Assembly: GCA_028688905.1 (NCBI GenBank)
Contig: JAQTXH010000002.1
Coordinates: 19,061-83,060, forward strand
Direction of reading: 5' to 3'
Length of the DNA: 64,000 nt
Origin: Acidiphilium sp.
GTDB taxonomy: Bacteria > Pseudomonadota > Alphaproteobacteria > Acetobacterales > Acetobacteraceae
This document shows positions 3,830 through 63,982 of this stretch, in pieces. The first letter of the stretch is position 1. Each line of letters opens with the position of its first letter. A model generated the notes under the pieces. The model made no database searches. It had not been told where the DNA came from and worked only from the letters and a program-made list of their open reading frames with translations. Both the position numbers and the translations under genes were made by a program.

Positions 3830-3866
3830 GGGAACTCCGTTTGGAGGTCGGGGGGTGGGCCGCGGC

Positions 3867-3922: not shown

Positions 3923-3924
3923 CG

Positions 3925-49206: not shown

Positions 49207-49252
49207 GCCTTTAGAGTGTGATTCACGGCTCCGGCGATCACACTCTAAAGGC
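49207..49252. repeat. Perfect 16-bp palindromic element between convergent genes
   Basis: GCCTTTAGAGTGTGAT-N14-ATCACACTCTAAAGGC; it contains the TAG stop of the mscS-like gene and a GANTC site. Confidence 0.85.
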
Positions 49253-50750
49253 CGAAGATATCTCGCATCCGGCTGGCGAGCCGATCGGCCAGATGATTAC
49301 CGTGGCTGTCGTGGACAGCGTGTTGTTCAAGGAGTTTCTTGCCCATGGCTTCGCGCCGCGCCAGGATATGGCCGAGTTCGGCGGTGATGGCCGGCCTTTC
49401 CTTAAGAATCGGAGCCAGATCGTCCTTCGCGATTTCGTAAACGACTGCCTTGGTTAACGCTTTGACCCTGAATGTCGTCGAGGCACCGGTTAGGACGCCA
49501 GCCTCACCGAAACAGTCTCCCGGACCGAGCCGGACGACTTCACCTTCCTCTGCCCCGCCATCCTGCAATGCAACCAGCACGCCGGTCGTCAGTATCGACA
49601 GTTGTTGGGCCACGGTCCCGGGTTCGGCGACAACTTCACCGGCTTTGTAGATATGTCGCATTAGTTTTGGAGCCAGGGCGATGCGTTCATCGTCGGAGAG
49701 TGGACCGAAGATGGGCAGGTTTTCGAGTAGCCGCCGCGGCATGTCCCTGGGGTCCTGCCGGATGGTGCGTGGTGGCAGGGCGATGGGACTTTCCGGAGGG
49801 GGAGCGAGACGGATACCCGCTGCCGCGCAATGACGATGCACGAGATCGAAGAGTTCGTTCTGAGCTTCGGGGCCATTTTCAACAGCAGACACGAAAAACT
49901 GCAATTCGCACTCCAAGGCCACGGCGTCGAGCGTCCTAATCGCTACAGTCGGTGCCGGAGTGCGGAGGATTCGATTGCAGCTCAACAACGCCGTTTCCAG
50001 CACGGCGCACTCGTGCGACGGTGCCATCAACGGTTCGAGCCTGATAACGATCGTGAGGCCGTGCGCCTTTGTCGGATGACTCGCATTGACGAGCTTGCCC
50101 TTGGCGATGAGGCTGTTTGGGATGGTGGCAAGGTCATTGCTCAAGGTGAGGATTTGTGTCGCACGCCAGGTGGTTTCGATGACTCGCCCCTGAAGGCCGT
50201 CGCCAAATATCACCCAATCGCCGACATAATACGGCTTGGCGATATTGAGGACGATACCTGAGAAGACATCGCCCAATGTGCTTTGCAGGGCGAGGCCGAG
50301 AACGATGGCGATGACGCCCGATGCTGCGAGCAGTCCGCGAATAGGGACATTGAAAACGTATGAGATGATCGCGAGGACGGCGGTGATATAAACGGCACCG
50401 GCGACGATGTCCTGCACGAACCGCGTTTCCCGGAGATGTTTCTTGAAGAGTGCGTGAAAGAGGTCAACAACCAGCCATGAAGCCGCAAGCCACCAAACGA
50501 TTTTGAAAACGCTGATGACGACAAATTGGACGGTTCCATCGATGGCTGGGGTCGGCTCCGATGGGATCACCTTGGCGACCAAAAGCATGATGGAGAAACC
50601 GGCGAAGGCGGCAACCTGACCGATAAACCGTCCGACTGGGCGGTTGCGAAAGAGAAACGGCGTTGCCAGGACTCCCGCGACGAGGAAAGCTCCTGCGAGG
50701 ATCAACGGGTTGGGAAGCCGTGAGATCAAATGCGAGAGATCGTTGGTCAT
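49245..50750 (-). CDS. MscS-family channel with C-terminal cNMP-binding domain (bCNG-like)
   Basis: LGLALQSTLGDVFSGI...PY.VGDWV...GRVIETTWRAT, then LPIFGPLSDDER...RLGPGDCFGEAGVLTG. Confidence 0.9.
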   Translation of the reverse strand: MTNDLSHLISRLPNPLILAGAFLVAGVLATPFLFRNRPVGRFIGQVAAFAGFSIMLLVAKVIPSEPTPAIDGTVQFVVISVFKIVWWLAASWLVVDLFHALFKKHLRETRFVQDIVAGAVYITAVLAIISYVFNVPIRGLLAASGVIAIVLGLALQSTLGDVFSGIVLNIAKPYYVGDWVIFGDGLQGRVIETTWRATQILTLSNDLATIPNSLIAKGKLVNASHPTKAHGLTIVIRLEPLMAPSHECAVLETALLSCNRILRTPAPTVAIRTLDAVALECELQFFVSAVENGPEAQNELFDLVHRHCAAAGIRLAPPPESPIALPPRTIRQDPRDMPRRLLENLPIFGPLSDDERIALAPKLMRHIYKAGEVVAEPGTVAQQLSILTTGVLVALQDGGAEEGEVVRLGPGDCFGEAGVLTGASTTFRVKALTKAVVYEIAKDDLAPILKERPAITAELGHILARREAMGKKLLEQHAVHDSHGNHLADRLASRMRDIFGL

Positions 50751-51137: not shown

Positions 51138-52511
51138 CTATAAGTGTGGGAGTATGATGGTGGCACCATAGAGACCGTTTGCCATGATCAGAAACGCTAC
51201 GATCGCGAACGCCGACAAATTCTGCCACGGTCGGTTGACATGGATGCCCATGATCGCCTTGTCGTTCAGCAACATCAGTAAAAACAGCATGGCTGCGGGC
51301 ATGAAGATCGTGGCTATCACCTGCACCGTGAGGTTTAGAAATCCCAAGGGAATATTTGGGATCAATACGATAATGCCTGCCATCGCGGCGCTGAGAATGC
51401 CCGAAAGATAAAAGGGTAGCGCCCGTTGCGGTCGCAGATTGAGGCTGCGGGGTAGTTTGAGTGCCTCCCCCACTGCCCAGGAGGTGCTGGCGGTAATGGC
51501 GATGGCGGCAATCAAACCGGCCTCCGTCAGGCCCAGGGCAAAGAGTGCGGTACCGATCGTTCCTAGACGGCTCATCTGTAAGGCTTCCAGGATCTTTTGA
51601 ATATTGAAATCCATGGCACCGGGGTGACCATAGACGACGGTCCCGGTCAGCACTACAATTGCTATCGCGATCACCCCCATTGAAAAACTGCCAACAGCAG
51701 TATCCATCTGACCATCGGGAATGTCCTGTACGGTGAGTCCCTTGTCCACCACTGAAGACTGCTGAAAAAAGAGCATCCAGGGTGCAACGGTCGTGCCCAG
51801 ATTGGCGAGAATGACATAGACGAAGGCACCAAGGGTCACTCCGGCGGGGATGTGCCAAGTCCCGATCGCGGCAACGACCTGTCCCCAGTCTGGGTGGGCG
51901 GCAATGGCCAGTGGCACGAAAACAATGTTCCCGGCAGCGATTACCAGGGCCAGCCGTTCCCAGGTGCTGTAATGAAGGAGTATCATGGTTAATGTGACGA
52001 AGATCCATCCACCGGTAACGGAGACAATGGGCGGCACACCGAAAACGCCCAGTCCCACCCGGATGCCGATGAACTCGGTCACCAGGGTCAAGATATTAGC
52101 CACGGTGAGATCCAGCAGGGAAAAAACGCCCCAAAAAGCCCCGTAGCGGCCCCAGATCATCTCCGCGTGGCCACGATGGGTCACGGCTCCCAGCCGCACC
52201 GTCATTTCCTGGACGACGTAAGCCACCGGGATCATCAACAGGAGAAAGGGGATGAAAAAGCCAATGCCATAGACTGCCCCCGTCTGGGCGTAGGTAATCA
52301 CGCCGCCAGCATCGTTATCGGCAATCATCACCAGGATGCCAGGCCCAAGCAGGCTCATAAAAAGCATGACGCGACGCCACAACGATGGATGCTGGCGTAG
52401 CTGATAGATTTGCCAGCGATCCAACTCCCGTTGGCGTTGATCCTCCGTGAGGTTGGAGGGCAAATCTCTCAGCAATTCTGCTTCGGTCTGCTTTTTTCTA
52501 CTTCTCAACAT
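51138..52511 (-). CDS. Nramp-related divalent cation transporter, NRMT (Mg2+) type
   Basis: TM1 DNDAGG instead of DPGN; TM6 LGTTVAPWMLFFQQS lacks the MPH motif of Mn/Fe Nramps. Confidence 0.88.
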   Translation of the reverse strand: MLRSRKKQTEAELLRDLPSNLTEDQRQRELDRWQIYQLRQHPSLWRRVMLFMSLLGPGILVMIADNDAGGVITYAQTGAVYGIGFFIPFLLLMIPVAYVVQEMTVRLGAVTHRGHAEMIWGRYGAFWGVFSLLDLTVANILTLVTEFIGIRVGLGVFGVPPIVSVTGGWIFVTLTMILLHYSTWERLALVIAAGNIVFVPLAIAAHPDWGQVVAAIGTWHIPAGVTLGAFVYVILANLGTTVAPWMLFFQQSSVVDKGLTVQDIPDGQMDTAVGSFSMGVIAIAIVVLTGTVVYGHPGAMDFNIQKILEALQMSRLGTIGTALFALGLTEAGLIAAIAITASTSWAVGEALKLPRSLNLRPQRALPFYLSGILSAAMAGIIVLIPNIPLGFLNLTVQVIATIFMPAAMLFLLMLLNDKAIMGIHVNRPWQNLSAFAIVAFLIMANGLYGATIILPHL

Positions 52512-52689: not shown

Positions 52690-53304
52690 CTACCCCTGAC
52701 CGTGTTCGATCCGGATCATGCGCTGACTCGGGATCCGCAGCCGCCGGTCCTCAAGCGGAGCACGGCGATGAAGGGCCGCCATGGTCAGGCGTTCATCGCG
52801 CGCGGTCAGCAGCGCCGCTATGGCTGGTTTGAACGCGACGAGCAGATGGTTCAGCCACCCCGCGACATCGCGTGGTTCGGCATCGTGCAACGCTGGTGAC
52901 CTGAGGTGGCGGATCATCGCGTCGGCCGGTTGCCAGACCTCGTCGGTGACCCAGCGGTTGGTGGTGAACAGGCGCAACGGCAAGCCTTTGGCATCAACGG
53001 AAACCGCGATCAGATGGGAAAATGCGGCGGCAGTATCGGGTCGGGCGGTGGCCGGGGCGGGCACGAAGATGTGGAAATGCCCATGCTCGTCGCGCAGGCG
53101 CTGCGACCGCGGATGGGCGTGATAATAGAAACGCCAGAAACTGTGCGGATCGATCGCGTCCGGCTGCGGATAATGCGCCCACTCGGCGAAGGAGGCCGCC
53201 CCTTCGAGCACGCGGGCCGGTGCGCTTTGCCCCCGCGCCGCCCAGGCGATGATCTGGTCGATCACCGCTTCGCCGGCGCGGCGCATCGGTGGTTTTCGGG
53301 TCAA
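52690..53304 (-). CDS. His-rich protein of unknown function (resembles DUF6969 as I recall it; needs an HMM check)
   Basis: FYYHAHP, EHGHFHIF, SHLIAVSVD and RLFTTNRWVT; no signal peptide. Confidence 0.75.
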   Translation of the reverse strand: MTRKPPMRRAGEAVIDQIIAWAARGQSAPARVLEGAASFAEWAHYPQPDAIDPHSFWRFYYHAHPRSQRLRDEHGHFHIFVPAPATARPDTAAAFSHLIAVSVDAKGLPLRLFTTNRWVTDEVWQPADAMIRHLRSPALHDAEPRDVAGWLNHLLVAFKPAIAALLTARDERLTMAALHRRAPLEDRRLRIPSQRMIRIEHGQG

Positions 53305-53540
53305 GGGGCGCAGGGGTTCACTGGTTTTTTCGCGGTCTTTTTCATGGTTTTGGCGGATTTTTGGGTCTGATGCTTGGCTGTCGTCGGTGCCGGGGCGCAG
53401 GGGTTTTGCGGGGTTGCGGCGTAGCTGATGCCGACGGGGTTGAGCGCCCCGACCGCGGCGGGTAGGGCAGGGGTCAACCCGATCGCGATTGCGAGCAGGG
53501 AGGCCGTGCGGCGGGCCGGTTTCAGTGTGTGAGCGGTCAT
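53301..53540 (-). CDS. 79-aa exported peptide with two NPCAP motifs and a Lys-rich linker
   Basis: Signal-like N-terminus; mature ATPQNPCAP...KSAKTMKKTAKKPVNPCAP. 13 nt after the yeeE stop and 4-nt overlap with the next gene. Confidence 0.75.
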   Translation of the reverse strand: MTAHTLKPARRTASLLAIAIGLTPALPAAVGALNPVGISYAATPQNPCAPAPTTAKHQTQKSAKTMKKTAKKPVNPCAP

Positions 53541-53553
53541 CGGAGGGGCGATC

Positions 53554-54150
53554 CTAGTGTTTGGGTTGGGCGGTGCCGGCCGGGGTGAAGGGGCTTACGG
53601 TGGTCCGGGGTGAGGCGGGTTTGGCGCGATCGACCAGCCAGCTGATCGTGACCAACACGGCCAGCAGCACTGCGAGCACCACCCAGGGGGATACGTGCAG
53701 CAGTTGCGGCACGGTGATCGAAGCCGGGCCGGTCTGGGCATAAATCCAGGATTTGATCGCCGGAAACACTGCGTTGAACGCCAGCGTGCCGCCGCCGATG
53801 CCGATCAGGAACAGCAGCCCGTCCAGCCGGCCGGACGCCATTGCGACCGCCGAGGTGCCGGGGCAATAGCCGCCGACCGCCATGCCGATGCCAACGCCGG
53901 CACCACCGAGCAGGGTGCCCCAGAAATAGACCGAGGGGACGAAAATATCGGACAGATGGATCAGGCCGAGCGCGCGCGAGGCGTAGATCAGAATGCCGCT
54001 GACCACGATGGCGGTGAACATCACCTTGAACACCGCCCAGTTGGTGAACCGCAATTGGGCGGTGAGACAGCCGGGATCGCCGAAGCCGGCACCTTCGAGA
54101 ATAACGCCGAACAGAATCCCGAGTGCCAGTCCGGTCCAGGGGATCATCAT
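53554..54150 (-). CDS. YeeE/YedE-family sulfur-compound transporter, subunit 2
   Basis: FGVILEGAGFGDP...VFKVMFTAI...GVGMAVGGYCPGTS. Confidence 0.9.
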   Translation of the reverse strand: MMIPWTGLALGILFGVILEGAGFGDPGCLTAQLRFTNWAVFKVMFTAIVVSGILIYASRALGLIHLSDIFVPSVYFWGTLLGGAGVGIGMAVGGYCPGTSAVAMASGRLDGLLFLIGIGGGTLAFNAVFPAIKSWIYAQTGPASITVPQLLHVSPWVVLAVLLAVLVTISWLVDRAKPASPRTTVSPFTPAGTAQPKH

Positions 54151-54674
54151 GAGATTGACTTTCGTTGCCAGAGGGGTTTGAAAATGGTACCGAACGCGAC
54201 GCCTGCGGCAAAAAATCCGATCAGGAACAGGAAACCGGCGGCCGCGAGCGGGGCGGAGCCTGAGAGGCCCATGCCGCTGGTGCAGCCCATCGCCATCCGC
54301 GCGCCGAAGCCCGAGGCGGCACCGCCGAGCAGAGCCAACCCGAGTCGCCCGAATGAGCGGACCCGGGGCGGACCGTCGATCTGGGGTCCGAACCGCCGGC
54401 CGAGCAGACTGCCGGCGAGCGCGCCGACGATCACGCCGATCACTTCCCAGACGATCCAGGAATTGAGGCCGGATCGGGCATAAGCGGCGAGGTAGTCATG
54501 CGCGCCGAACGCGTGGGGAGCCACGCTGGCAACACCGACCGCTGTCATCGCGGTGGTCGCGCCGGTCACACCGAGGCCGTGACCGGTGGCGAAAAACGTC
54601 GCGAACAGCACGACGCCGAGGGCGATTCCCGAAAGATAGGGATTCCATCGTGGCCTTGGGTTAACCGCTCTCAT
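54147..54674 (-). CDS. YeeE/YedE-family sulfur-compound transporter, subunit 1
   Basis: WNPYLSGIALG, GLGVTGA and GFGARMAMGCTSG. Confidence 0.9.
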   Translation of the reverse strand: MRAVNPRPRWNPYLSGIALGVVLFATFFATGHGLGVTGATTAMTAVGVASVAPHAFGAHDYLAAYARSGLNSWIVWEVIGVIVGALAGSLLGRRFGPQIDGPPRVRSFGRLGLALLGGAASGFGARMAMGCTSGMGLSGSAPLAAAGFLFLIGFFAAGVAFGTIFKPLWQRKSIS

Positions 54675-54716: not shown

Positions 54717-55691
54717 TCAGAAGGCGGATTTGCCGTTGACCACCGGAAGCGACGCATCGCGCGTCCATTCCGACATCGATCCGCTGTAGAGTTTCACGTC
54801 AGGCACGTGGGCGACCTCACGCAGGGCGAACCAGTCGAGCGAGGCGAGATGGCCGGTGTTGCAGAAAGTGTAGGCCGGCTTGTCGGTCGAAATGCCGGCC
54901 TTGTGCATCGCGGCAACGACCTCGGCGCGGTCGAGCATGCCCTCGCCATCGGATGTCAGTACGACCGAATACGGCAGGTTGAGCGCGCCCGGAATGGTGC
55001 CGACCTTCCGATCGACCGCCGGCCTGACCTTGCCTTCATACTGCTTCACAGGTCGTGCATCGACCAGTTGGAAACGATGCGTGTTGAGATCGGCCTGCAC
55101 CATCGCCTGGGTCGCGAGCAGACTGGCATCGAAATGCGGGGTGAAGCTGGCGACGGCGGGTGTGACATCGCCGGTGGCGACCGGGTCTTTCGGGTTGGCG
55201 AGCCAGGCGTGGTCGCCACCGTTCATGATCGAGACATTGTTCATGCCTTCGATCCGCAGGGTCCAGTAGACCCGCGTGGTCGCCGGGAAATCGCCCTTGA
55301 TCGCGCCGGCCGGTACCAGGATGACGCGGCTGTCGTCATTAATGCCGACGCCGGCAATGACTTTGGCGATGGTGGCTTCGGGCGGCAGCACGAAGGGCAA
55401 GCCGTTCATCGGCACCCGCCAATGATCGCTCAAAAAGCCGGTGAAGACCGCGCCGGGAATATGCTCCTTCTCGTAGGCCGGCTTCTGCTTGTCGAAATCA
55501 TAGACCTCGACGACGACCAGATTGGGCGTGTGCAGATGGGCGACGAGCCAGGCTGGAGTGACCAGCGCCGGTGCGACCGGGCCTGCCGCCTGCGCGGCGA
55601 TGACACCCAGGGGTGCCAGGGCCAGAAGGGCCGCCACCGCAGTGGCGCGGCCAAGCTGGGCGCGGAGCGAGCGTACTATTGGAATATTCAT
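54717..55691 (-). CDS. Periplasmic tandem-domain sulfurtransferase (rhodanese)
   Basis: Signal peptide; LVTPAWL, HIPGAVF, MNGGDHAW, LVDARP, GTIPGA, active-site FCNTGHLAS and LYSGSMSEW. Confidence 0.92.
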   Translation of the reverse strand: MNIPIVRSLRAQLGRATAVAALLALAPLGVIAAQAAGPVAPALVTPAWLVAHLHTPNLVVVEVYDFDKQKPAYEKEHIPGAVFTGFLSDHWRVPMNGLPFVLPPEATIAKVIAGVGINDDSRVILVPAGAIKGDFPATTRVYWTLRIEGMNNVSIMNGGDHAWLANPKDPVATGDVTPAVASFTPHFDASLLATQAMVQADLNTHRFQLVDARPVKQYEGKVRPAVDRKVGTIPGALNLPYSVVLTSDGEGMLDRAEVVAAMHKAGISTDKPAYTFCNTGHLASLDWFALREVAHVPDVKLYSGSMSEWTRDASLPVVNGKSAF

Positions 55692-55818
55692 TGATTATTA
55701 TCCCTCCTGATAGTGTCAAGCGCTTCTGGTTTTGCGGACGTCGGCAGGCGCTTAGCGCTTTCGATACGCGACCAAAGCGAAACATGCAAGAATTATTATA
55801 TTTCAGTCGTAATTGTCA

Positions 55819-55832
55819 TTGACCCAGATCAA
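55819..55832. promoter_or_regulatory. FNR/FixK box upstream of the psr-like operon
   Basis: TTGAC-ccag-ATCAA; TAATGT at 55855-55860 gives class II (-41.5) geometry. Confidence 0.72.
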
Positions 55833-55928
55833 TGACCCTGAGAGTTAGGACCGGTAATGTAATATTGTCAGGCTGCGGCTAGAGTCCGCAGTCTGGCTCG
55901 TCGGTGTTGACCTGTGGAGGAGATCGGC

Positions 55929-58124
55929 ATGCAGCGCCGTGACTTTATCAAGCTCAGTGCCACGGTCGGCTCAAGCGCGCTGCTCGGCTCGATGCTGGGC
56001 GGATGCACCGAGCCGGCCGAATGGCAGCGCATGATGAACGCGCCACCCGCCACCGAGACCGCGACGGTCTGCAACATCTGTTTCTGGTCCTGCGCCGCCC
56101 GCGTCCACACCCAGGGGTCGCGCCTGTGGAAGATCACCGGCCAGCCGGGCGATCCGCATTCCGATGGGCGGTTGTGTACCCGCGGCACCGGTGGGGTGGG
56201 GGCTTATTACGATCCGAACCGGCTGATCAAACCGCTGCTGCGCGTTACCCGCAACGGCCAGCAGCGCTTCGAGGTGGCAAGCTGGGACGACGCGCTCGGG
56301 GTGATTGCGGAACGGTTGACCAAGGTCGCCAAAACCTACGGGCCGGATCGGCTCGCCTCGCTGGTGCATGGGCCGGGGGCGGAACATTTCGTGCATTTGA
56401 GCCGCGCCTTCGGCAGCGACAGCATCGCCGAACCCGCCTTCGCGCAATGCCGCGGGCCGCGCGACACCGGATTTTTTCTCACCTTCGGCGAGGGCATCTC
56501 CTCGCCCGAGCAGACCGACATGTCGAATGCGCGCTGCGTCGTGCTGATCGGCACGCATCTCGGCGAGAATCTGCATAACAGCCAGGTGCGGACGTTTGCC
56601 GATGCGATCCGGAACGACGCGACGATCATCACGGTCGATCCGCGCTTCTCGGTGGCGGCCGGCAAGTCGCAGCACTGGCTGCCGATCAAGCCCGGCACCG
56701 ACATCGCCCTGCTGCTCGCCTGGATCAACGTGATCCTGGCCGAAAAACTGTATGATGCCGATTATGTCGCGCGCAACACGATCGGGCTGCCGGAACTCGC
56801 CGCCTATGTCGCGCCGTTCACGCCGGAATGGGCCTATCCCGCGACCGGGCTGGAACCCGAGGCGATCCGGCGGACCGCGCGGTTGATGGCGGCGGCGGCA
56901 CCGGCCACGGTCATTCATCCCGGCCGGCACACCGTGTGGTGGGGCGATGATACCCAGCGCGCCCGCGCGATGGCGATTCTGGCCGGGCTGCTCGGCATCT
57001 GGGGCAGCAAGGGCGGCTATTACCTGCCGGAAGCGGCGCTGATCCCGGATTACCCGCTGCCGGAATATCCGGTGCCGAAATCCTCCTGGCGCGACATCAC
57101 CCTGGCGAAATATCCGCTCGCCGGCGCGCCGGTCACCAATGTGATCATCGACAACGCGCTGGGCAAAAACGCGCATTACCGCGCCCTGCTGATCTATGAC
57201 ACCAACCTGCCGATGACGATGCCCGGCATTCGCGAGAAATTGCAGACCGCATCGCAATCGCTCGATCTGATCGTCGCGATCGATGTGCAGCCCTCCGAAG
57301 TGACCGGCTATGCCGATGTCGTGCTGCCGGAGTGTTCGTATCTGGAGCGTTATGACGGCTTGCGCAACGATCCCGAAATCGAACCCTGCATCGCGCTGCG
57401 CTCGCCCGCCTTGCCGCCACGCGGGGAGTCGAAGCCGGGCTGGTGGATTGCCAAGGAGATCGGCAACCGGCTTGGGGTGGCCGATTATTTCCCCTGGAAG
57501 GATTACGCCGAGGTGGTCGATTGGCAACTCAGGCAGGTCGGCAGTTCGCTCGAGGAGCTGAAAAGCACCGGGATCAGGTTTTTTCCGCGCACGACGCCGC
57601 TCTATTATAAAAAAGGCGAGACCATTCCGTTCAAGACCCCGAGCGGCAAGATCGAGCTGTATTCGACGACCCTGAAGGACGCCGGGTTCGATCCGATCCC
57701 GCGCTTCACCCCGCCGCAGGAGGCGAGGCCAGGGTTTTTCCGCCTCAATTACGGTCGCGCGCCGCAGCATAGTTTCAGCCGCACCCAGAACAATCCGGTG
57801 TTGTTTCAGTTGATGCCGGAAAACCTGGTGTGGATTCATCCGACCGTCGCGCGGCAATTCGGCATCGAGACTGCGAGCTATATCCAACTGGTCAATCAGG
57901 ACGGGGTGGTGAGCAATCGGGTGCGGGTGCGGGTGACCGAGCGGACCCGGCCGGATTCGGTGTGGCTGGTGCATGGGTTCGGCCATACCGCCGAAGGGTT
58001 GAAACTCGCGTTCGGCCGGGGGGCCGATGATTCCGCGCTGATGACGAATATTCTCTACGACCCGATCATGGGAGGCACCGGCATGCGCGGCAATTACGTG
58101 ACCTTTCGCAAGGCGGCGGCGTGA
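55929..58124 (+). CDS. psrA: Tat-exported molybdopterin oxidoreductase, polysulfide/thiosulfate reductase (PsrA/PhsA)-like catalytic subunit
   Basis: QRRDFIK signal, CNICFWSC...LCTRG cluster, AQCRGPR Mo-Cys motif, TVDPRFS, PSGKIELYS and HSFSRTQNN. Confidence 0.85.
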   Translation: MQRRDFIKLSATVGSSALLGSMLGGCTEPAEWQRMMNAPPATETATVCNICFWSCAARVHTQGSRLWKITGQPGDPHSDGRLCTRGTGGVGAYYDPNRLIKPLLRVTRNGQQRFEVASWDDALGVIAERLTKVAKTYGPDRLASLVHGPGAEHFVHLSRAFGSDSIAEPAFAQCRGPRDTGFFLTFGEGISSPEQTDMSNARCVVLIGTHLGENLHNSQVRTFADAIRNDATIITVDPRFSVAAGKSQHWLPIKPGTDIALLLAWINVILAEKLYDADYVARNTIGLPELAAYVAPFTPEWAYPATGLEPEAIRRTARLMAAAAPATVIHPGRHTVWWGDDTQRARAMAILAGLLGIWGSKGGYYLPEAALIPDYPLPEYPVPKSSWRDITLAKYPLAGAPVTNVIIDNALGKNAHYRALLIYDTNLPMTMPGIREKLQTASQSLDLIVAIDVQPSEVTGYADVVLPECSYLERYDGLRNDPEIEPCIALRSPALPPRGESKPGWWIAKEIGNRLGVADYFPWKDYAEVVDWQLRQVGSSLEELKSTGIRFFPRTTPLYYKKGETIPFKTPSGKIELYSTTLKDAGFDPIPRFTPPQEARPGFFRLNYGRAPQHSFSRTQNNPVLFQLMPENLVWIHPTVARQFGIETASYIQLVNQDGVVSNRVRVRVTERTRPDSVWLVHGFGHTAEGLKLAFGRGADDSALMTNILYDPIMGGTGMRGNYVTFRKAAA

Positions 58125-58666
58125 TGACCCATTATGCGATGGTGATCGACACCAGAACCTGCATCGGCTGTACTGACTGCGTCGATGCCTGCCGGATGGA
58201 GAACAACGTCCCCGAAGGTCTATGCTATGATTGGGTGGTCGAGATCACCAAGGGGCGCTATCCGAATTTGACCACCGAGTTTCGCTCTGAGCGCTGCAAT
58301 CATTGCTCCAACGCCACCTGTGTCACCGCCTGCCCGACCGGGGCGAGCCAGTATTGGAACGGCAGCAACATCGTCGTGGTCGATGCGACCAAATGCACCG
58401 GCTGCAAGGCCTGCATCGCCGCCTGCCCGTATGACGCAAGGCTGATCATGCAGCCGCAGGGCTACATCGGCAAATGCACCTTCTGTGTGCAACGGGTGCA
58501 ATATGGCGAGGACCCCGCCTGCGTCGCGGTATGCCCGGCGCATGCGATGCATTTCGGACTGCTCGATGATCCGACCAGCAACGTCAGCCGATTGCTGGCG
58601 GAGCGCGAGAATTACACCCTGCATCCGGAAACCGGCAACGAGCCGAACGTATTCTATTTGCGCTGA
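58121..58666 (+). CDS. psrB: Four-cluster [4Fe-4S] electron-transfer subunit (PsrB/NrfC-like)
   Basis: CIGCTDCVDAC, CNHCSNATCVTACP, CTGCKACIAACP and KCTFC...PACVAVCP. Confidence 0.92.
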   Translation: MMTHYAMVIDTRTCIGCTDCVDACRMENNVPEGLCYDWVVEITKGRYPNLTTEFRSERCNHCSNATCVTACPTGASQYWNGSNIVVVDATKCTGCKACIAACPYDARLIMQPQGYIGKCTFCVQRVQYGEDPACVAVCPAHAMHFGLLDDPTSNVSRLLAERENYTLHPETGNEPNVFYLR

Positions 58667-58690
58667 CCATGAAAAACGAGGTGCCGTGAC

Positions 58691-59731
58691 ATGCGCGAGG
58701 AGGTTCTGGCCAGTGTTCTGGCCAATCCAGGTGTCGAGCCGACGCTCGCGATCTGGGGCTGGCAGATTGCGACCTATCTGTTTCTCGGTGGTCTCGCCGC
58801 CGGGTTGATGGTGTTTTCCGGCTGGACGGTGCTGAGTGGGCGCGCGGCGCGCACACCCTTCGCCGCCAATCGCGCCCCGCTGATCGGGCTGGTGCTGCTC
58901 GGAGTAGGCATGGGAACGTTGTTTCTCGATCTGGAGCGCAAGATCAACGTCTGGCGGTTCTACGCGTTCCTGCACGAGACCTCGCCGATGTCATGGGGGG
59001 CGTGGATTCTGATTTTGGTGTTCCCGGTGCTCGCCCTGCTGGCTCTGGCCGGGCTGCCGGCGGGGTTCCCCTGGTTGGCCGGGAAACTGGGTCGTCTGCC
59101 GATCATCGGTCCGCGTGCCGTCACGCCGCTGATCGGGCTGTGCGGCAGGGTGCGGCGACCGCTGGCGTTTCTGGGGATCGCGCTCGGCATCGGGCTCGGC
59201 ATCTATACCGGGGTGCTGCTGTCGAGCTTCAATGCGCGGCCGTTCTGGCATTCGGCGCTGCTCGGTCCGCTGTTTCTGGTCTCCGGCCTGTCGACCGGCG
59301 CGGCGCTGATGATCCTGGGCGCCGGCACGAAGGAGGAGCGGCATCTGTTCGGCCGGATCGACCTCGGCCTGATCGTGGCCGAACTCGCGCTGATCTTTCT
59401 GTTCGTGATCGACATGCTGAACGGTGACGCGTTGCAGCGGAGCGCGGTGGCGCATGTGCTCGGCGGGTCCGAGACGCAATTGTTCTGGATCGGGTTCATC
59501 GGCCTCGGCCTCGCGATACCACTGGTGCTGGAGGCCGCGATGTGGTGGCGCTCGATGACGCCGATCGCAGGTGCTGCGTCGGTCCTGGTGCTGCTCGGTG
59601 GCTTTCTGCTGCGCGACGTCATGGTAACCACCGGCCAGCAGACCACCTGGACCAGCTTCAACAATCAGTTCAACCCCGGATTGCTCGCCAGACTGCGCAC
59701 CGATGGCGAAAATCCGAACGGACGTTTTTAG
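58691..59731 (+). CDS. psrC: NrfD/PsrC-family membrane anchor
   Basis: WGWQIATYLFLGGLAAG, LFLDLE, SPMSWGAW, YTGVLLS...RPFWH..LLGPLFLVSGLSTG and GGFLLR. Confidence 0.92.
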   Translation: MREEVLASVLANPGVEPTLAIWGWQIATYLFLGGLAAGLMVFSGWTVLSGRAARTPFAANRAPLIGLVLLGVGMGTLFLDLERKINVWRFYAFLHETSPMSWGAWILILVFPVLALLALAGLPAGFPWLAGKLGRLPIIGPRAVTPLIGLCGRVRRPLAFLGIALGIGLGIYTGVLLSSFNARPFWHSALLGPLFLVSGLSTGAALMILGAGTKEERHLFGRIDLGLIVAELALIFLFVIDMLNGDALQRSAVAHVLGGSETQLFWIGFIGLGLAIPLVLEAAMWWRSMTPIAGAASVLVLLGGFLLRDVMVTTGQQTTWTSFNNQFNPGLLARLRTDGENPNGRF

Positions 59732-59741
59732 GAGACGACCG

Positions 59742-60410
59742 ATGCAACGCACAAAGCTCTCCCGCACCCGGATCTCCGGCCTCGCGCTGGCTCTCGGTGC
59801 GATTCCCGCCCTGCCGATGGCGATCCCGGCGCTCTCGCCGCTCGGCGTCGCCCGCGCCGATGCCCAAGACGCGGCGACGCTGCAAACCATGGCCCAGGCG
59901 GTCGCGCGCGGGGAGACCCTGGTGACACCACACCATCTGCAAGGGCTGATCCTGGCGAAACGGCGCGATTTCACCCTGATCGACCTGCGCGCCCCGGGCG
60001 ATTTCGCCGCCGCCCATATCCAGGGTGCCACCAACATGCCGCTCCCCAAACTGCTCGAATCGGCGGAAATCGTGAAACTGCGCCGGATGCCGCAGGTCAT
60101 CGTGTACTCCACCACGACCGACGAAGCGGCCCAGGGCGTGGTGCTGCTGCGCCTGTCCGGCGTGGCGGCGATGGCGCTGGAGGGCGGGCTGCTCGCCTGG
60201 TCGCACATGGTCACGGCGGCATCGACACCGCAGACCGCCGCGATCGTGCGCGCCCTGAACGATTGCCCGCAACCGGCACCGGCGGTCATCCCCGCGCTCG
60301 GCAGCATCGTGCCGGCAAGCGCCACCACACCCGCCGTGTCGCCGGTGCCAGCGCCGCCCACCAAGCCGAAACCAAAAACCCCCATTAATCTGAACGCCAT
60401 GTGCGGTTAG
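59742..60410 (+). CDS. Exported rhodanese-fold protein lacking the catalytic Cys, with Pro-rich arm and C-terminal MCG
   Basis: LIDLRAPGDFAAAHIQGA, VIVYSTTT (Ser at the usual Cys position) and LEGGLLAW; start 59742 after AGGAG. Confidence 0.82.
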   Translation: MQRTKLSRTRISGLALALGAIPALPMAIPALSPLGVARADAQDAATLQTMAQAVARGETLVTPHHLQGLILAKRRDFTLIDLRAPGDFAAAHIQGATNMPLPKLLESAEIVKLRRMPQVIVYSTTTDEAAQGVVLLRLSGVAAMALEGGLLAWSHMVTAASTPQTAAIVRALNDCPQPAPAVIPALGSIVPASATTPAVSPVPAPPTKPKPKTPINLNAMCG

Positions 60411-61067: not shown

Positions 61068-62189
61068 ATGGGCGCGGAGAGCCAGACTTTTTACCAGTTG
61101 ATGCGCGCTCAGGGTACTAGTCGGCGTTCGTTTCTCAAATTTTGCAGCCTGACCGCCGCCGCCCTCGGGCTGGAGCCGGTCTATGCCGCGCAGATCGCCC
61201 ACGCCATGGAAACCAAGCCGCGGATTCCGGTGCTCTGGATGCATGGGCTGGAATGCACGTGCTGTTCGGAATCCTTCATCCGTTCGGGGCATCCGCTGGC
61301 CAAGGATGTCATCCTGAAAATGATCTCGCTCGATTACGACGACACGCTGATGGCCGCCGCCGGGTACCAGGCCGAGGCGATTCTCGACGAAATCCCGAAA
61401 AAATACCCGGGCGAATATATTCTCGCGGTCGAGGGCAATCCGCCGCTCAACGAGGATGGCATGTATTGCATCGTCGGCGGCAGGCCGTTCGTCGACAAGC
61501 TCAAGGCGGTGGCGGCGAATGCCAAGGCGGTGATCGCCTGGGGTGCCTGCGCCTCCTGGGGCTGCGTGCAGGCGGCGCGGCCCAACCCGACGCAAGCGAC
61601 GCCGATCGACAAGGTGATCACCGACAAGCCGATCATCAAGGTGCCGGGCTGCCCGCCGATCGCCGAGGTGATGACCGGGGTGATCAGCTACATGATCACC
61701 TTCGGGCGCATCCCCGATCTGGACAGTCGCGGCCGGCCCCTGATGTTCTACGGCCAGCGGATTCACGACAAATGCTATCGCAGGCCGCATTTCGACGCCG
61801 GCGAGTTCGTCGAGACCTGGGACGATCAGGGGGCGCGCGAGGGCTACTGCCTCTATAAAATGGGTTGTCGGGGGCCGACCACCTATAACGCGTGCTCGAC
61901 GGTGCGCTGGAACGGCGGGGTGTCGTTTCCAATCCAGGCCGGCCACGGCTGCATCGGCTGCTCGGAAGACAATTTCTGGGACAATGGCCCGTTCTACCAG
62001 CCGCTGTCGCATGTCGGTGCCGGGTTCGGGGTCGAGGCGAGTGCCGACGAAATCGGCGCGGCGGCGGCGGGCGTGGTCGGTGCCGGCGTGCTCGCCCATG
62101 CCGGGGCCAGCGCGATCAAGCATTGGCAGAAAATCAAGCCGAAACCGAAGTCTGACGACCATCCGCCGCATGAGGGAGACCGGCCATGA
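61068..62189 (+). CDS. hupS: Membrane-bound [NiFe]-hydrogenase small subunit, O2-tolerant group 1d
   Basis: Tat SRRSFLK; ECTCCSES and GACASWGC (supernumerary Cys19/Cys120 positions); [12 protein letters not shown]; C-terminal TM. Confidence 0.96.
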
Positions 62190-63982
62190 CGACCGTCACC
62201 ACGCCGAACGGCTTCAGCCTCAATAACAGCGGACGGCGCATGGTGGTCGATCCGATCACGCGGATCGAGGGGCATCTGCGCTGCGAGGTCAATCTCGACC
62301 AGAATAACGTCATCCGCAACGCGGTGTCGTCGGGCACCATGTGGCGCGGCCTCGAGGTGATTTTGAAGGGCCGCGATCCGCGTGATGCCTGGGCTTTTTG
62401 CGAACGCATCTGCGGTGTGTGTACCGGCATCCACGCGCTGGCCTCGGTGCGGGCGGTGGAGGATGCGCTCGCCATCACGATTCCGGAAAACGCCAACACC
62501 ATTCGCAACATCATGCTGGCGACGCAATGGGCGCAGGATCATCTGGTGCATTTCTATCATCTGCACGCGCTCGACTGGGTCGATGTGATCAGCGCGCTGA
62601 AGGCCGATCCGAAAGCGACCAGCACGCTCGCGCAGAGCATCTCGCCGTGGCCGAATTCCTCGCCGGGCTATTTTCGCGATGTGCAGACGAGGCTGAAAAA
62701 ATTCGTCGATTCGGGTCAATTGGGTCCGTTCATGAACGGCTACTGGGGTAATCCGGCGTATCTGCTGCCACCGGAAGCCAATCTGATGGCGGTGACGCAT
62801 TATCTCGAGGCGCTCGATTTTCAGCGCGAAATCGTGAAAATCCACACCGTGTTCGGCGGCAAGAACCCGCATCCGAACTGGCTGGTCGGCGGCATGGCCT
62901 GCGCGATCAATCTCGACGGCCCGCTCGCCGCCGGCGCGCCGGTGAACATGGTGCAGCTCAATCTGGTATCCTCGATCATCGACCGCACGATCGACTTCAT
63001 CGATCAGGTCTATGTTCCCGATCTGATCGCCATTGCGACCTATTACAAACACTGGGATTACGGCGGCGGCCTCGCCGGGCGGAATCTGATGTCCTATGGC
63101 GATTACCCGGTCGCCGCCAACAACTGGTCGGACGCCAATCTGCTGATCCCGCGCGGGGCGATCATCAACGGCAAGCTCGACGAGATCATGGAGATCGACC
63201 TGCGCGACCCCAGCCAGGTGCAGGAGTTCGTCGATCATTCCTGGTATCGCTACCCCGACGAGGCGATCGGGCTGCACCCCTGGGCCGGCATCACCGATCC
63301 CAATTTCGAGCTCGGCCCCCACACGGTCGGCACCAAAACCGACATCAAGCAACTCGATGAAGGTGCCAAATATTCCTTCATCAAAGCCCCCCGCTGGCGC
63401 GGCCACGCGATGGAGGTCGGCCCGCTGTCGCGCTTCACTTTAGGCTACGCCAAGGGGATTGCGGAGTTCAAGGAGCCGGTCGACAAGGTGCTGACCGATC
63501 TCGGCCTGCCGCTCGGTGCCTTGTTCACCACGCTCGGCCGCACCGCCGCGCGCGGGCTGGAAGCCTCCTGGGCCGCGCACAAGATGCGCTTCTTCCACGA
63601 CCGGCTGATGGAAAACCTGCGCGCGGGCGATCTGGTCACCGCGAACACCGAAAAATGGGAACCGGCGACCTGGCCGGCCGAGGCCCGCGGCATCGGGCAT
63701 GTCGAGGCACCGCGCGGCGCGCTCGGCCATTGGGTGCATATCAAGGATCGCAAGATCGAAGCCTATCAGGCCGTGGTGCCGACCACCTGGAACGGCTCCC
63801 CGCGTGATCCGGCCGGCAATATCGGCGCGTTCGAGGCGGCACTGCTGAACACCCCGCTCGCGGACTCCAGCCAGCCGCTGGAAATTTTGCGCACGCTACA
63901 CAGTTTCGATCCCTGCCTCGCCTGTGCCACCCATGTGATCGCGCCCGATGGCAGCGAACTGGTGCGCGCCGACGTGCTTTAG
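62186..63982 (+). CDS. hupL: [NiFe]-hydrogenase large subunit
   Basis: [39 protein letters not shown] and a cleavable C-terminal extension. Confidence 0.98.

What the first reader, a model, noticed from the sequence alone, without database searches (positions are those of the whole stretch)
52690..53540. NPCAP two-cysteine secreted peptide coupled to a His-rich putative metalloenzyme: a RiPP-like or sulfur-carrier system
Seen: the last two genes of the rhodanese-yeeE-yeeE operon, overlapping by 4 nt. The peptide has an export signal and a roughly 38-aa Lys-rich mature part whose only Cys are in two identical NPCAP motifs, one at the C-terminus. The partner is cytoplasmic with HAH and EHGHFH clusters. 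Known: signal-peptide precursors with repeated Cys motifs next to metalloenzymes are the logic of MNIO/DUF692 metal-binding RiPPs, but this enzyme is not DUF692. Inferred: a new Cys-modifying enzyme family producing a periplasmic sulfane-sulfur or metal chelator.
Basis: partly seen in the sequence, partly recalled or inferred. Interest (0 to 1): 0.72.

Follow-up and report, generated by a model that had tools for sequence, protein, structure and literature searches.

The report
Exported NPCAP cysteine peptide with DUF6969 partner
A tiny exported two-cysteine peptide and a histidine-cluster protein with no solved structural relative form a real, widely conserved and undescribed gene pair, placed here in a sulfur-trafficking operon; the peptide probably carries reactive sulfur outside the cell membrane, and the chemistry of its partner is still unknown.

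Summary
On the minus strand, five tightly packed genes encode an exported rhodanese, two half-size YeeE proteins, a 79-aa signal-peptide protein with exactly two Cys (both in NPCAP, one at the C-terminus), and a Cys-free protein carrying HAH and EHGHFH motifs.

The partner protein is Pfam DUF6969 (E 1e-57). I found no paper on it, and a confident model matches no solved structure.

NPC-repeat signal-peptide ORFs lie beside DUF6969 in at least 31 of 81 loci and in 14 of 15 rhodanese/YeeE-type loci. Among 301 alphaproteobacterial genomes, 39 of 44 with NPC arrays carry DUF6969 (p about 5e-25).

The peptide gene is under purifying selection (dN/dS about 0.19). Elsewhere its repeats are fused to rhodanese, to CX5R domains and to cytochrome P460.

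One complication is new. Close DUF6969 relatives also occur without any NPC peptide, inside NiFe-hydrogenase accessory rows or beside psrABC, so DUF6969 is not a dedicated peptide enzyme.

Best reading: the peptide is a periplasmic sulfur-carrying cysteine arm, and DUF6969 is a cytoplasmic metal-dependent factor acting before export. Modification is unproven. The module is undescribed and of high interest.

The parts
55792..55819 (-). Promoter-like site (ATGACA-16-AATAAT) about 100 nt upstream of the rhodanese start, in the 222-nt region shared with the divergent psrA
   Evidence: This is a consensus match only, not evidence of function.
54717..55691 (-). Exported tandem rhodanese, the first gene of the row; its single Cys lies in the CNTGH loop
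   Evidence: PF00581 at E 5e-20 and NF008557 at E 4e-36. The N-terminal signal-like sequence is visible. The gene is conserved in 12 type-A loci.
54147..54674 (-). Half-size YeeE (PmpA/YedE-type), matching the C-terminal half of the Sulf_transp profile; has a GCTSG Cys
   Evidence: PF04143 profile positions 175-308. The family description is in PMC11582611.
53554..54150 (-). [quoted passage not shown]
   Evidence: PF04143 profile positions 4-157.
53301..53540 (-). 79-aa precursor of the exported NPCAP peptide (coordinates include the stop codon)
   Evidence: The orthologue is 70% identical with dN/dS about 0.19. No Pfam or NCBIfam model matches.
53418..53540 (-). Signal sequence, residues 1-41 (n-region KPARR, hydrophobic core, ISYA|A)
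   Evidence: Read directly from the sequence. The same layout appears in every related peptide. No signal-peptide predictor was available.
53391..53405 (-). First NPCAP motif (N46-P50, Cys48)
   Evidence: conserved in the orthologue.
53304..53318 (-). Second NPCAP motif (N75-P79, Cys77), the C-terminal five residues
   Evidence: AAC CCC TGC GCC CCT TGA. A terminal or near-terminal NPC[AG]P is present in most type-A peptides.
52690..53304 (-). DUF6969 protein: 204 aa from the TTG at 53304, or more likely 198 aa from the ATG at 53286; cytoplasmic and Cys-free
   Evidence: PF22308 at E 1.2e-57. The AF2 model has pLDDT 86.9. Neither a structure search nor a sequence-profile search of the PDB finds a relative.
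53071..53121 (-). Invariant His/Glu cluster HAH-x8-EHGHFH (H56, H58, E67, H68, H70, H72 in 198-aa numbering), on adjacent beta-strands of the model; H91 lies on the next strand
   Evidence: Invariant columns of alignment A1; strand assignment.
55914..59731 (+). Context: the divergent psrABC-like genes. These are a Tat-signal molybdopterin subunit (55914-58124), a 4Fe-4S subunit (58121-58666) and an NrfD membrane subunit (58691-59731).
   Evidence: The same divergent arrangement occurs in L095, L097, L096 and L002.

Best explanation
**Peptide.** The 79-aa gene encodes a real exported peptide. After signal-sequence removal, about 38 residues remain: a flexible Lys/Pro/Thr-rich tether with two cysteines, each in N-P-C-A-P, one at the very C-terminus.

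In this operon the peptide most likely acts as a periplasmic cysteine arm.
- It would accept sulfane sulfur as a persulfide from the exported rhodanese encoded first in the row.
- It would then present that sulfur to the split YeeE (PmpAB/YedE1E2-type) channel, which moves zero-valent sulfur inward.
- The divergent PsrABC and the nearby hydrogenase would be the respiratory users or producers of that sulfur pool.

**DUF6969.** This is a cytoplasmic, Cys-free protein with an invariant His/Glu cluster on one face of a beta-sheet, in a fold with no solved relative. NPC-cysteine proteins appear to require it. I infer that it is a metal-dependent maturation factor that acts on the N-P-C cysteines of the precursor in the cytoplasm, before export. 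It would either modify or prime them covalently, as MNIO enzymes do for bufferins, or load or protect them.

**Shown.** The genes, their conservation, export signals, genomic coupling, domain fusions and absence of a known fold.

**Inferred.** Sulfur loading of the peptide, hand-over to YeeE, metal binding by DUF6969, and any action of DUF6969 on the peptide.
For: **Real genes in a conserved five-gene row.** See, and dN/dS of about 0.19.

**Coupling of NPC peptides to DUF6969.**
- A signal-peptide NPC ORF lies within 6 kb in at least 31 of 81 loci. L077 and L081 were missed by that scan and found later.
- It is present in 14 of 15 rhodanese/YeeE-type loci, always in the order peptide then DUF6969.
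- Of 301 alphaproteobacterial genomes, 68 have DUF6969 and 44 match a 3xNPC pattern. Thirty-nine have both, giving Fisher p = 5e-25. At least three of the five exceptions look like non-coding repeats.
- In 12 of the 16 genomes whose coordinates were printed, an array lies within 7 kb of DUF6969.

**Chance excluded in the window's own genome**.

**Strict motif.** In type-A loci the motif is N81/S12 - P93 - C - A64/G29 - P87 (percent of cysteines). That is tighter than simple metal-binding peptides would need, and it points to recognition by a protein.

**Sulfur link.**
- Arrays are fused to a rhodanese domain (L011) and to CX5R BLH-phosphatase-like domains (L021, L057).
- The rows sit with an exported rhodanese, split YeeE, an SQR-like gene or psrABC.
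- Split YeeE proteins import zero-valent sulfur (PMC10812762) and each keeps one essential Cys (PMC11582611).

**DUF6969 itself.**
- It has no signal sequence and no Cys.
- H56, H58, E67, H68, H70, H72 and H91 are invariant, together with many aromatic residues.
- They lie on adjacent strands of a confident model.
- No PDB relative turns up by fold or by profile.

**Precedent.** Cytoplasmic metalloenzymes are already known to act on Sec-exported Cys peptides, as in the bufferins (PMC11626156).
Against:
- DUF6969 is not confined to NPC peptides. In the window's own subclade it sits after rubredoxin in NiFe-hydrogenase accessory rows (L094, L098), upstream of hydS (L099, L003), or beside psrABC plus a rhodanese (L096, L002). 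None of these has an NPC ORF nearby.
- The Arenicellales genome that holds L096 shows no NPC[AG]P cluster.
- Four Azospirillum genomes and three others have DUF6969 but no 3xNPC array.
- A dedicated maturase would normally travel with its substrate.
- No RRE-type partner, protease or exporter is present.
- Loci of the second type (FGE-like, cytochrome) have no YeeE channel, so sulfur import cannot be the general role of NPC arrays.
- Metal binding by the His cluster is inferred from sequence alone; I had no model coordinates to check its geometry.
Confidence: 0.45

Rival explanations
1. DUF6969 is not an enzyme. It would be a cytoplasmic escort or metallochaperone for exported cysteine proteins. 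It would hold NPC precursors, and in other loci hydrogenase subunits, reduced and metal-free or correctly loaded until export. That is functionally like the HybE/HupJ or HyaE proofreading chaperones of hydrogenases.
For: - In L094 and L098, DUF6969 lies between the rubredoxin (HupI-type) gene and a HypC/HupF gene and overlaps the rubredoxin gene by 8 nt. To my knowledge that is the slot HupJ/HoxT usually occupies.
- The window's genome has this hydrogenase type (HydS about 90% identical) but no HybE-family gene anywhere. The only HybE gene in Thiomonas lies 1.5 Mb from that operon.
- This reading explains why DUF6969 occurs without NPC peptides, and why NPC arrays nevertheless always come with it.
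- The signal n-regions of this subclade keep a twin arginine.
Against: - There is no sequence or fold similarity to HybE, HyaE or any solved chaperone.
- Seven invariant His/Glu residues on one sheet face look more like a catalytic or tight metal site than a client-binding surface.
- Most NPC signal sequences outside this subclade lack a twin arginine.
Confidence: 0.25
2. DUF6969 is a cytoplasmic sulfur-metabolising metalloenzyme. It could be, for example, a non-homologous stand-in for persulfide dioxygenase. It would consume the sulfane sulfur that the peptide and the YeeE pair bring in, and would never touch the peptide itself.
For: - It occupies the position that pdo takes in yedE1-yedE2-pdo operons (PMC10812762).
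- It has a His/Glu cluster and no Cys, as non-haem iron oxygenases do.
- It stays in Psr/rhodanese/SQR/hydrogenase clusters even where the peptide is absent.
Against: - Loci of the second type pair DUF6969 with NPC arrays but have no YeeE or other obvious sulfur importer.
- The invariant order, peptide then DUF6969, with near-zero spacing, fits a direct partnership better.
- DUF6969 has neither a metallo-beta-lactamase nor a cupin fold or motif.
- Embedding among hydrogenase maturation genes is hard to explain on this reading.
Confidence: 0.12
3. The peptide is an unmodified periplasmic soft-metal (Cu, Ni, Cd) buffer rather than a sulfur carrier, and its place among sulfur genes is incidental.
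For: - Repeats rich in Cys and Lys resemble metal-binding peptides.
- An Nramp gene lies directly downstream.
- Earlier scan notes report NPC modules beside bufferin genes (not checked here).
- The His-rich partner could handle a metal.
Against: - This peptide has only two Cys, 28 residues apart.
- Arrays of this flavour are fused to sulfurtransferase-type domains and are always flanked by rhodanese and YeeE.
- The genome already has a complete, separate bufferin operon.
- The downstream flank differs in the closest relative, which has no Nramp there.
Confidence: 0.1
4. The small ORF is a chance reading frame, or the adjacency has no meaning.
For: The peptide has low complexity and no family model, and a homology search finds only one relative cluster.
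Against: Purifying selection, genome-wide rarity of the motif, recurrence across three proteobacterial classes, and genome-level co-occurrence at p of about 1e-25.
Confidence: 0.01

Closest known systems
Bufferins and oxazolins (BufA/HvfA precursors modified by MNIO BufB/HvfB with a DUF2063 partner; PMC11626156, PMC11252979)
   Same: A small precursor carries an N-terminal export signal and conserved, often repeated, Cys motifs. A cytoplasmic His-rich metalloprotein gene lies directly beside it. The product works in the periplasm.
   Different: DUF6969 has no sequence or fold similarity to MNIO. The operon has no DUF2063/RRE partner and no DoxX. The motif is N-P-C, not a bufferin or EGKCG core. 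The context is sulfur trafficking rather than metal stress. DUF6969 also occurs without any such peptide. The genome has its own separate bufferin operon. No modification has been shown.
SoxY of the SoxYZ carrier (C-terminal GGCGG swinging arm); also Sud, the polysulfide-sulfur transferase that serves Psr (from my own knowledge)
   Same: A periplasmic carrier presents a cysteine at the end of a flexible C-terminal arm and works with sulfurtransferases. Here the NPCAP motif is the C-terminus, and the peptide is encoded next to a rhodanese and divergent from psrABC.
   Different: There is no folded SoxY domain, no SoxZ partner and no Sox enzymes in the row. The motif is unrelated, the peptide is only about 38 residues long with two Cys, and it requires or accompanies a cytoplasmic partner that Sox carriers do not have.
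PmpAB / YedE1E2 split YeeE zero-valent sulfur importers with a neighbouring rhodanese or persulfide dioxygenase (PMC10812762, PMC11582611)
   Same: Two adjacent half-size PF04143 proteins each carry one conserved Cys, sit in an operon with a sulfurtransferase, and are followed by a cytoplasmic metalloprotein gene.
   Different: The characterised operons have no exported Cys peptide, and they carry PDO (a metallo-beta-lactamase) rather than DUF6969. The halves here are longer, at 175 and 198 aa against about 130 aa.
HybE/HupJ/HoxT and HyaE hydrogenase proofreading chaperones (from my own knowledge)
   Same: In two related loci DUF6969 occupies the accessory-gene slot after rubredoxin in a NiFe-hydrogenase operon. 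The window's genome has no HybE-family gene.
   Different: No sequence or fold similarity was found. DUF6969 has a His cluster, and most of its family sits nowhere near hydrogenases.
Formylglycine-generating enzyme (FGE/SUMF1), which acts on CxPxR
   Same: It is a short Pro-containing Cys motif recognised by a metalloenzyme. In the second context, a secreted FGE-like gene lies between the NPC array and DUF6969.
   Different: No FGE-like gene lies in or near this operon; the genome's two FGE-domain genes are on other contigs. The motif is N-P-C, not C-x-P-x-R.

Membership tests
Pfam DUF6969 (PF22308) | Match to the family profile above the gathering score over its full length | tested here: met
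   E 1.2e-57, 195 bits against a cut-off of 27, profile positions 2-201 of 201. It is the only copy in the genome.
MNIO-dependent exported RiPPs (bufferins/oxazolins) | An MNIO (DUF692, PF05114) enzyme encoded with the precursor | tested here: not met
   The partner matches only PF22308. The genome's single MNIO gene is on another contig with its own BufA-like precursor, DUF2063 and DoxX.
MNIO-dependent exported RiPPs (bufferins/oxazolins) | A DUF2063/RRE-type partner protein | tested here: not met
   None of the five genes in the row, nor the flanking genes, carries such a domain.
MNIO-dependent exported RiPPs (bufferins/oxazolins) | A precursor with an N-terminal export signal and conserved Cys | tested here: met
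   A signal-like N-terminus and two invariant NPCAP cysteines.
MNIO-dependent exported RiPPs (bufferins/oxazolins) | Cys converted to thiooxazole or oxazolone-thioamide | not testable with these tools
   Requires mass spectrometry or NMR of the mature peptide.
SoxY-type sulfur carrier | A folded SoxY domain with a SoxZ partner | tested here: not met
   The peptide has no Pfam or NCBIfam match. About 38 residues of low-complexity sequence leave no room for a folded domain, and there is no SoxZ-like gene in the row.
SoxY-type sulfur carrier | A carrier Cys at the end of a flexible C-terminal arm | tested here: met
   NPCAP forms the last five residues here and in the nearest relatives. It lies within 0-3 residues of the end in most type-A peptides.
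SoxY-type sulfur carrier | Covalent loading with sulfur species | not testable with these tools
   Needs an in vitro transfer assay with the rhodanese, read out by mass spectrometry.
PmpAB/YedE1E2 split YeeE transporter | Two adjacent half-size PF04143 proteins covering the C- and N-terminal halves of the profile, each with a conserved Cys | tested here: met
   Profile positions 175-308 and 4-157. The motifs GCTSG and GYCPG are present. The criteria come from PMC11582611.
PmpAB/YedE1E2 split YeeE transporter | Imports zero-valent sulfur | not testable with these tools
   Known for the Cupriavidus and Sinorhizobium proteins (PMC10812762). Not assayed for this pair.
Persulfide dioxygenase (ETHE1/PDO) | A metallo-beta-lactamase fold with the HxHxDH motif | tested here: not met
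   No Lactamase_B match. Foldseek finds no PDB relative at E below 1. The motif is HAH-x8-EHGHFH.
HybE/HupJ hydrogenase chaperone | Match to PF11939, or the HybE fold | tested here: not met
   No Pfam match and no PDB fold match. Only the gene position in L094 and L098 resembles it.
FGE-dependent Cys modification | An FGE-domain gene in the locus and a CxPxR target motif | tested here: not met
   The genome's FGE-domain genes lie on contigs C18 and C10. The peptide has no CxPxR.

The most novel reading that the evidence does not exclude
DUF6969 would found a new class of metalloenzyme with a new fold. It would recognise the tripeptide Asn/Asp-Pro-Cys in proteins destined for export and chemically alter or load that cysteine in the cytoplasm. 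Its substrates would range from two-Cys peptides like this one, through 45-Cys arrays fused to cytochrome P460, to possibly the DPCxxCxxH nickel-binding tail of the NiFe-hydrogenase large subunit. That would amount to a previously unrecognised and widespread post-translational maturation system. The family has about 1,100 clusters at 50% identity and is present in about a quarter of the sampled alphaproteobacterial genomes. It would link sulfur trafficking, haem proteins and hydrogenases.
Probability: 0.3. Interest if true: 0.92.

Novelty: new variant of a known kind. Interest (0 to 1): 0.74.

Why it matters
**Sulfur trafficking.** How reactive sulfane sulfur is held and passed between periplasmic enzymes (rhodanese, Psr, SQR) and the YeeE-type channels is an open question. 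So far only SoxYZ and Sud are known as carriers. A gene-encoded 38-residue cysteine arm that always sits between a split YeeE pair and a conserved unknown protein is a concrete, testable candidate for the missing carrier.

**DUF6969.** This is a large family, with about 1,100 clusters at 50% identity and members in 68 of 301 sampled alphaproteobacterial genomes. A text search of the held paper library for its name found nothing, and it has no solved structural relative. It has an invariant histidine cluster, and essentially every genome with NPC-cysteine arrays carries it. Finding out what it does would do one of two things. It would add a new enzyme class to the short list of systems that modify exported Cys peptides, at present the MNIOs. 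Or it would reveal a new type of maturation or escort factor shared by sulfur carriers, P460 haem proteins and oxygen-tolerant hydrogenases.

**Testability.** The pair is small and easy to express, so the decisive experiment is simple.

Tried and rejected
**Searches that gave nothing.**
- Searching the peptide for homologues found only itself and one 70% relative. The family can be recognised only by motif, so I switched to motif and pattern scans.
- Literature searches for DUF6969, NPCAA/NPCAP/NPCGP and Asn-Pro-Cys or NPC repeats returned nothing relevant.
- Structure search (Foldseek) and sequence-profile search (HMM) of the PDB with the DUF6969 model and alignment gave nothing below E of about 1. 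The fold could not be assigned to cupin, metallo-beta-lactamase, MNIO, HybE or any other family.
- Domain fusions of DUF6969 gave no functional clue. I found only a tandem DUF6969 duplication and one SH3 fusion.

- I could not check the geometry of the His cluster, since model coordinates are not exposed. Peptide-protein co-folding was not available either.

**Ideas rejected.**
- The genome's MNIO modifying this peptide: that MNIO has its own complete bufferin operon on another contig.
- An FGE-like partner at this locus: there is none nearby.
- A chance ORF.

**Limits of my own scans.**
- My first ORF scan under-counted neighbouring peptides. It missed arrays fused to larger proteins (L021, L057, L011) and those in L077 and L081, which were found later.
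- The 3xNPC DNA pattern misses peptides like this one, whose two motifs are widely spaced. The window's own genome scores negative. The count of DUF6969 genomes 'without arrays' is therefore an upper bound.
Full report
**1. What is in the window**

On the minus strand, five genes are packed head to tail.

| Gene | Coordinates | Notes |
|---|---|---|
| Rhodanese | 54717-55691 | Signal-like N-terminus; one Cys, in a CNTGH loop (PF00581) |
| Half-size YeeE, C-terminal half | 54147-54674 | PF04143 profile positions 175-308 |
| Half-size YeeE, N-terminal half | 53554-54150 | PF04143 profile positions 4-157 |
| 79-aa ORF (peptide) | 53301-53540 | No family match |
| DUF6969 | 52690-53304 | PF22308, E 1.2e-57, full length |

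- The spacings are 42 nt, a 4-nt overlap, 13 nt, and then either a 4-nt overlap (TTG start at 53304) or a 14-nt gap (ATG at 53286).
- The database gene call is the 198-aa ATG form. The nearest orthologue also starts after the peptide stop.
- A promoter-like site lies about 100 nt upstream of the rhodanese gene.
- Divergently transcribed are psrABC-like genes, a rhodanese-like gene and a NiFe hydrogenase.

The peptide reads MTAHTLKPARRTASLLAIAIGLTPALPAAVGALNPVGISYA|ATPQNPCAPAPTTAKHQTQKSAKTMKKTAKKPVNPCAP. It has exactly two Cys, both in NPCAP, and the second motif is the C-terminus.

**2. Is it more than chance?**

- In the whole 3.4-Mb genome, NPC occurs 385 times across six frames.
- Only three open frames have two NPC within 60 residues.
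- Only one of those has a signal sequence, and it abuts the genome's single DUF6969 gene.
- A 70%-identical orthologue exists in metagenome contigs with the same five-gene row but different flanking genes.
- Codon comparison gives dS of about 1.0 and dN of about 0.20, so dN/dS is about 0.19. Both NPCAP motifs are kept, with synonymous changes around them.

The gene is real and under selection.

**3.

I aligned 18 diverse DUF6969 proteins and fetched 80 loci from species-representative genomes.

- A signal-peptide ORF with repeated NPC lies within 6 kb in at least 31 of 81 loci, often directly upstream on the same strand.
- Later checks showed this is an undercount. L021, L057 and L011 carry the repeats fused to larger proteins, and L077 and L081 have arrays just upstream.
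- Clustering the neighbouring ORFs revealed two contexts.
  - Type A, as in this window: rhodanese, both YeeE halves, the NPC[AG]P peptide and DUF6969. The peptide is present in 14 of 15 such loci, always in the order peptide then DUF6969.
  - Type B, in Rhodospirillales, Thalassospira and related groups: a secreted FGE-like protein, DUF6969, a cytochrome c and DUF2336. The arrays here are NPCAA or CNPC types. They are sometimes free, and sometimes hold 24-34 repeats fused to a cytochrome P460 domain.

**4. Genome-level co-occurrence**

I sampled 301 alphaproteobacterial genomes, drawn evenly across the class.

- 68 have DUF6969 above the Pfam cut-off.
- 44 match a DNA pattern for three NPC codon triplets within 10 residues of each other.
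- 39 have both, which gives Fisher p = 5e-25.
- Of the five exceptions, three are visibly non-coding tandem repeats and two are single hits.
- For the 16 genomes where both sets of coordinates were printed, 12 have an array within 7 kb of DUF6969.

The relation is asymmetric. NPC arrays practically always come with DUF6969. But 29 genomes with DUF6969 have no array by this pattern, and the pattern is insensitive to two-motif peptides such as the one here. Targeted searches confirmed that four Azospirillum genomes and three others have DUF6969 without such arrays. Seven further genomes have arrays elsewhere, or adjacent but missed by my first scan.

**5. What the peptide looks like across the family**

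- In type A the consensus around each Cys is N(81%)/S(12%) - P(93%) - C - A(64%)/G(29%) - P(87%).
- In type B it is N-P-C-A-A or C-N-P-C.
- Spacers are Lys-rich and variable.
- A terminal or near-terminal NPC[AG]P is usual in type A.
- There are three natural fusions. L011 joins an NPCGP array to a rhodanese domain with a CRTGGR loop (PF00581, E 3.5e-13). L021 and L057 join NPCAP arrays to a CX5R DSP/BLH-phosphatase-like domain (PF22741, PF04273).
- These fusions, together with the conserved exported rhodanese and the split YeeE pair, tie the type-A arm to sulfur transfer.
- Split YeeE proteins (PmpAB/YedE1E2) have been shown to import zero-valent sulfur and depend on one Cys in each half (PMC10812762, PMC11582611).
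- In relatives the same row lies beside an SQR-like gene (L093) or divergent from psrABC, as it does here (L095, L097).

**6. What DUF6969 looks like**

- It has no signal sequence, no transmembrane segment and no Cys.
- Invariant residues include Y55, H56, H58, E67, H68, G69, H70, F71, H72, H91, N110, W112, and several further Trp, Tyr and Phe.
- The AF2 model is confident (pLDDT 86.9, pTM 0.85). It places H56/H58, H68/H70/H72 and H91 on three neighbouring strands of a five-stranded sheet, followed by a helical C-terminal part.
- Foldseek against the PDB gives nothing better than E = 1, and an HMM profile search of PDB sequences gives nothing.
- A search of 1.84 billion representative proteins finds 1,102 clusters. 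The only fusions are a tandem duplication and one SH3 fusion.
- In a tree of DUF6969, the type-A contexts form two clades that mix alpha-, beta- and gammaproteobacteria (Acidiphilium, Oxalobacteraceae, Rhodanobacter). The module therefore moves horizontally as a unit, and the motif flavour follows the clade.

**7. A complication that changes the picture**

I looked up the closest homologues of the window's DUF6969 (55-64% identity). They are not always next to a peptide.

- In Thiomonas sp. FB-Cd one paralogue (46% identity) sits in a type-A row: SQR-like gene, YeeE halves, NPCAP peptide, DUF6969, rhodanese.
- The second Thiomonas paralogue is closer, at 58% identity. It lies inside a NiFe-hydrogenase operon between the rubredoxin gene and a HypC/HupF gene, overlapping the rubredoxin gene.
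- The same arrangement recurs in L098.
- In L099 and L003, DUF6969 lies directly upstream of hydS. In L096 and L002 it lies beside psrABC and a rhodanese with no YeeE. None of these loci has an NPC ORF.
- The hydrogenase and Psr proteins of these loci are 80-91% identical to those of the window. This is therefore one shared hydrogenase-Psr-sulfur supercluster, in which DUF6969 is the constant member and the peptide plus YeeE are present about half the time.
- The window's genome has the matching hydrogenase accessory row (cytochrome b, protease, HyaE, HupH, rubredoxin, HypA, HypB) but no HybE/HupJ-family gene anywhere. The only HybE gene in Thiomonas is far from that operon.
- To my knowledge the slot after the rubredoxin is where HupJ/HoxT normally sits. 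I did not test that here.

**8. Interpretation**

All contexts share proteins that are exported and depend on cysteines: NPC peptides and arrays, P460 fusions, and the hydrogenase. They also share a cytoplasmic DUF6969.

A cytoplasmic protein and an exported one can meet only before export. I therefore favour a pre-export maturation role for DUF6969. The strict N-P-C motif and the invariant His/Glu cluster lean towards a metal-dependent enzyme, following the logic of bufferins (PMC11626156). The hydrogenase slot and the peptide-free loci lean towards an escort or metallochaperone. A purely downstream sulfur enzyme, such as a PDO stand-in, explains the type-A rows. It does not explain the type-B arrays, which lack any importer, and it does not explain the invariant gene order.

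For the peptide itself, in this operon, the sulfur-carrier reading is best supported. A metal-buffer role is less likely here: it has two Cys 28 residues apart, the genome has a separate bufferin operon, and there are fusions to sulfurtransferase domains.

My rough weights are:

| Reading | Weight |
|---|---|
| Carrier peptide plus a pre-export factor that acts directly on the peptide precursor, by modification, priming or loading/protection | 0.45 |
| Escort or chaperone | 0.25 |
| Downstream sulfur enzyme | 0.12 |
| Metal buffer | 0.10 |

**9. Comparison with known systems and novelty**

- The pair works like, but is not a member of, the MNIO/bufferin kind. It lacks both the defining enzyme and the partner.
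- It resembles SoxY only in having a terminal Cys arm.
- The YeeE pair is a member of the PmpAB/YedE1E2 type by architecture.
- DUF6969 is a named Pfam family with no known function. I found no paper mentioning it or the NPC repeats.
- Earlier notes from this scan describe the same module in other genomes. I used them only as leads. I re-derived the P460 fusion, the FGE-like neighbour and the SQR/YeeE row myself.
- I class the finding as a new variant of a known kind: an exported Cys peptide with a cytoplasmic metalloprotein partner, or alternatively a sulfur relay with a carrier arm. There is a real chance, about 0.3, that the chemistry is categorically new.

**10. Limits**

There is no biochemistry, no model coordinates and no co-folding. 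Signal-sequence type (Sec or Tat) is not determined. Counts of arrays depend on simple motif patterns.

Noticed in passing
window 59703-60410 (+): The fourth gene of the divergent psr row is a rhodanese-like protein whose active-site position lacks Cys (VIVYSTTT). It ends in a Pro/Ala/Lys-rich linker with a terminal ...KPKPKTPINLNAMCG. This is a second 'cysteine on a flexible tail' design in the same region.
   Followed up: partly
window 61068-63982 (+), continuing on contig C11 to about 86900: This is an uptake NiFe hydrogenase with a CTCC motif in the small subunit, which I recall as typical of the oxygen-tolerant six-Cys type. It is followed by cytochrome b, a protease, HyaE, HupH, rubredoxin, HypA and HypB. 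The genome has no HybE/HupJ-family gene.
   Followed up: partly
L094 7001-7648 and L098 6001-6675: DUF6969 is embedded in NiFe-hydrogenase accessory rows between the rubredoxin and HypC/HupF genes, overlapping the rubredoxin gene by 8 nt, with no NPC peptide nearby. The large subunit's nickel-binding tail DPCLACATH contains a D-P-C that resembles N-P-C. I did not test whether that resemblance means anything.
   Followed up: partly
Own genome, contig C10:35000-41000 (L092): A complete canonical bufferin (gig-type) operon lies here. It comprises an ECF sigma factor, a BufA-like 115-aa precursor, an MNIO, DUF2063 and DoxX. It is unlinked to the NPCAP locus.
   Followed up: yes
window 53507-53512 (Arg10-Arg11 of the peptide); L004, L005, L006, L093, L095, L097, L100: The signal n-regions of this peptide subclade keep a twin arginine, often S-R-R. 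Other NPC peptides have Lys-rich n-regions instead. Export by Tat rather than Sec cannot be excluded for this subclade.
   Followed up: no
L011 3329-3961; L021 about 3560-4360; L057 (232-aa ORF ending about 150 nt before DUF6969): NPC[AG]P arrays are fused in one polypeptide to a rhodanese domain (L011) or to a CX5R DSP/BLH-phosphatase-like domain (L021, L057). Each fusion lies between the YeeE halves and DUF6969.
   Followed up: yes
L088 6321-7490; L090 6157-7314; L089 5228-6214: Arrays of 10-34 NPC repeats are fused to a C-terminal cytochrome P460 domain. In L088 and L090 the array gene is divergent from an FGE-like gene and DUF6969. L089 also has a free 12-repeat peptide and a multihaem cytochrome alongside.
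   Followed up: partly
L100 6090-6461 (Thiomonas sp. FB-Cd, C2 at about 2.158 Mb): A second, orphan NPCAP/SPCAP peptide gene lies far from both DUF6969 paralogues, next to an IS110-type transposase and a patatin-like gene.
   Followed up: partly
35 of 81 loci, e.g. L030 7621-8757: In Rhodospirillales-type loci, DUF6969 is followed on the same strand by a DUF2336 protein at a median of about 260 nt. It is often preceded by a universal stress protein and a fused TRAP transporter. This is a second conserved partner of unknown function.
   Followed up: no
L080 5639-5956: Upstream of a very divergent DUF6969 (Parasphingopyxis MAG) lies a signal-peptide ORF with 19 Cys in (E/A)GCCAAA repeats instead of NPC.
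   Followed up: no
P0123 (497 aa), P0217: Some proteins consist of two tandem DUF6969 domains, which hints that the family works as a dimer.
   Followed up: no
window 51138-52511 (-) and 49245-50750 (-): Downstream of the operon lie an Nramp-family metal transporter and an MscS-like channel with a cyclic-nucleotide-binding domain. The closest orthologous locus has different genes there, so these are probably unrelated neighbours.
   Followed up: partly
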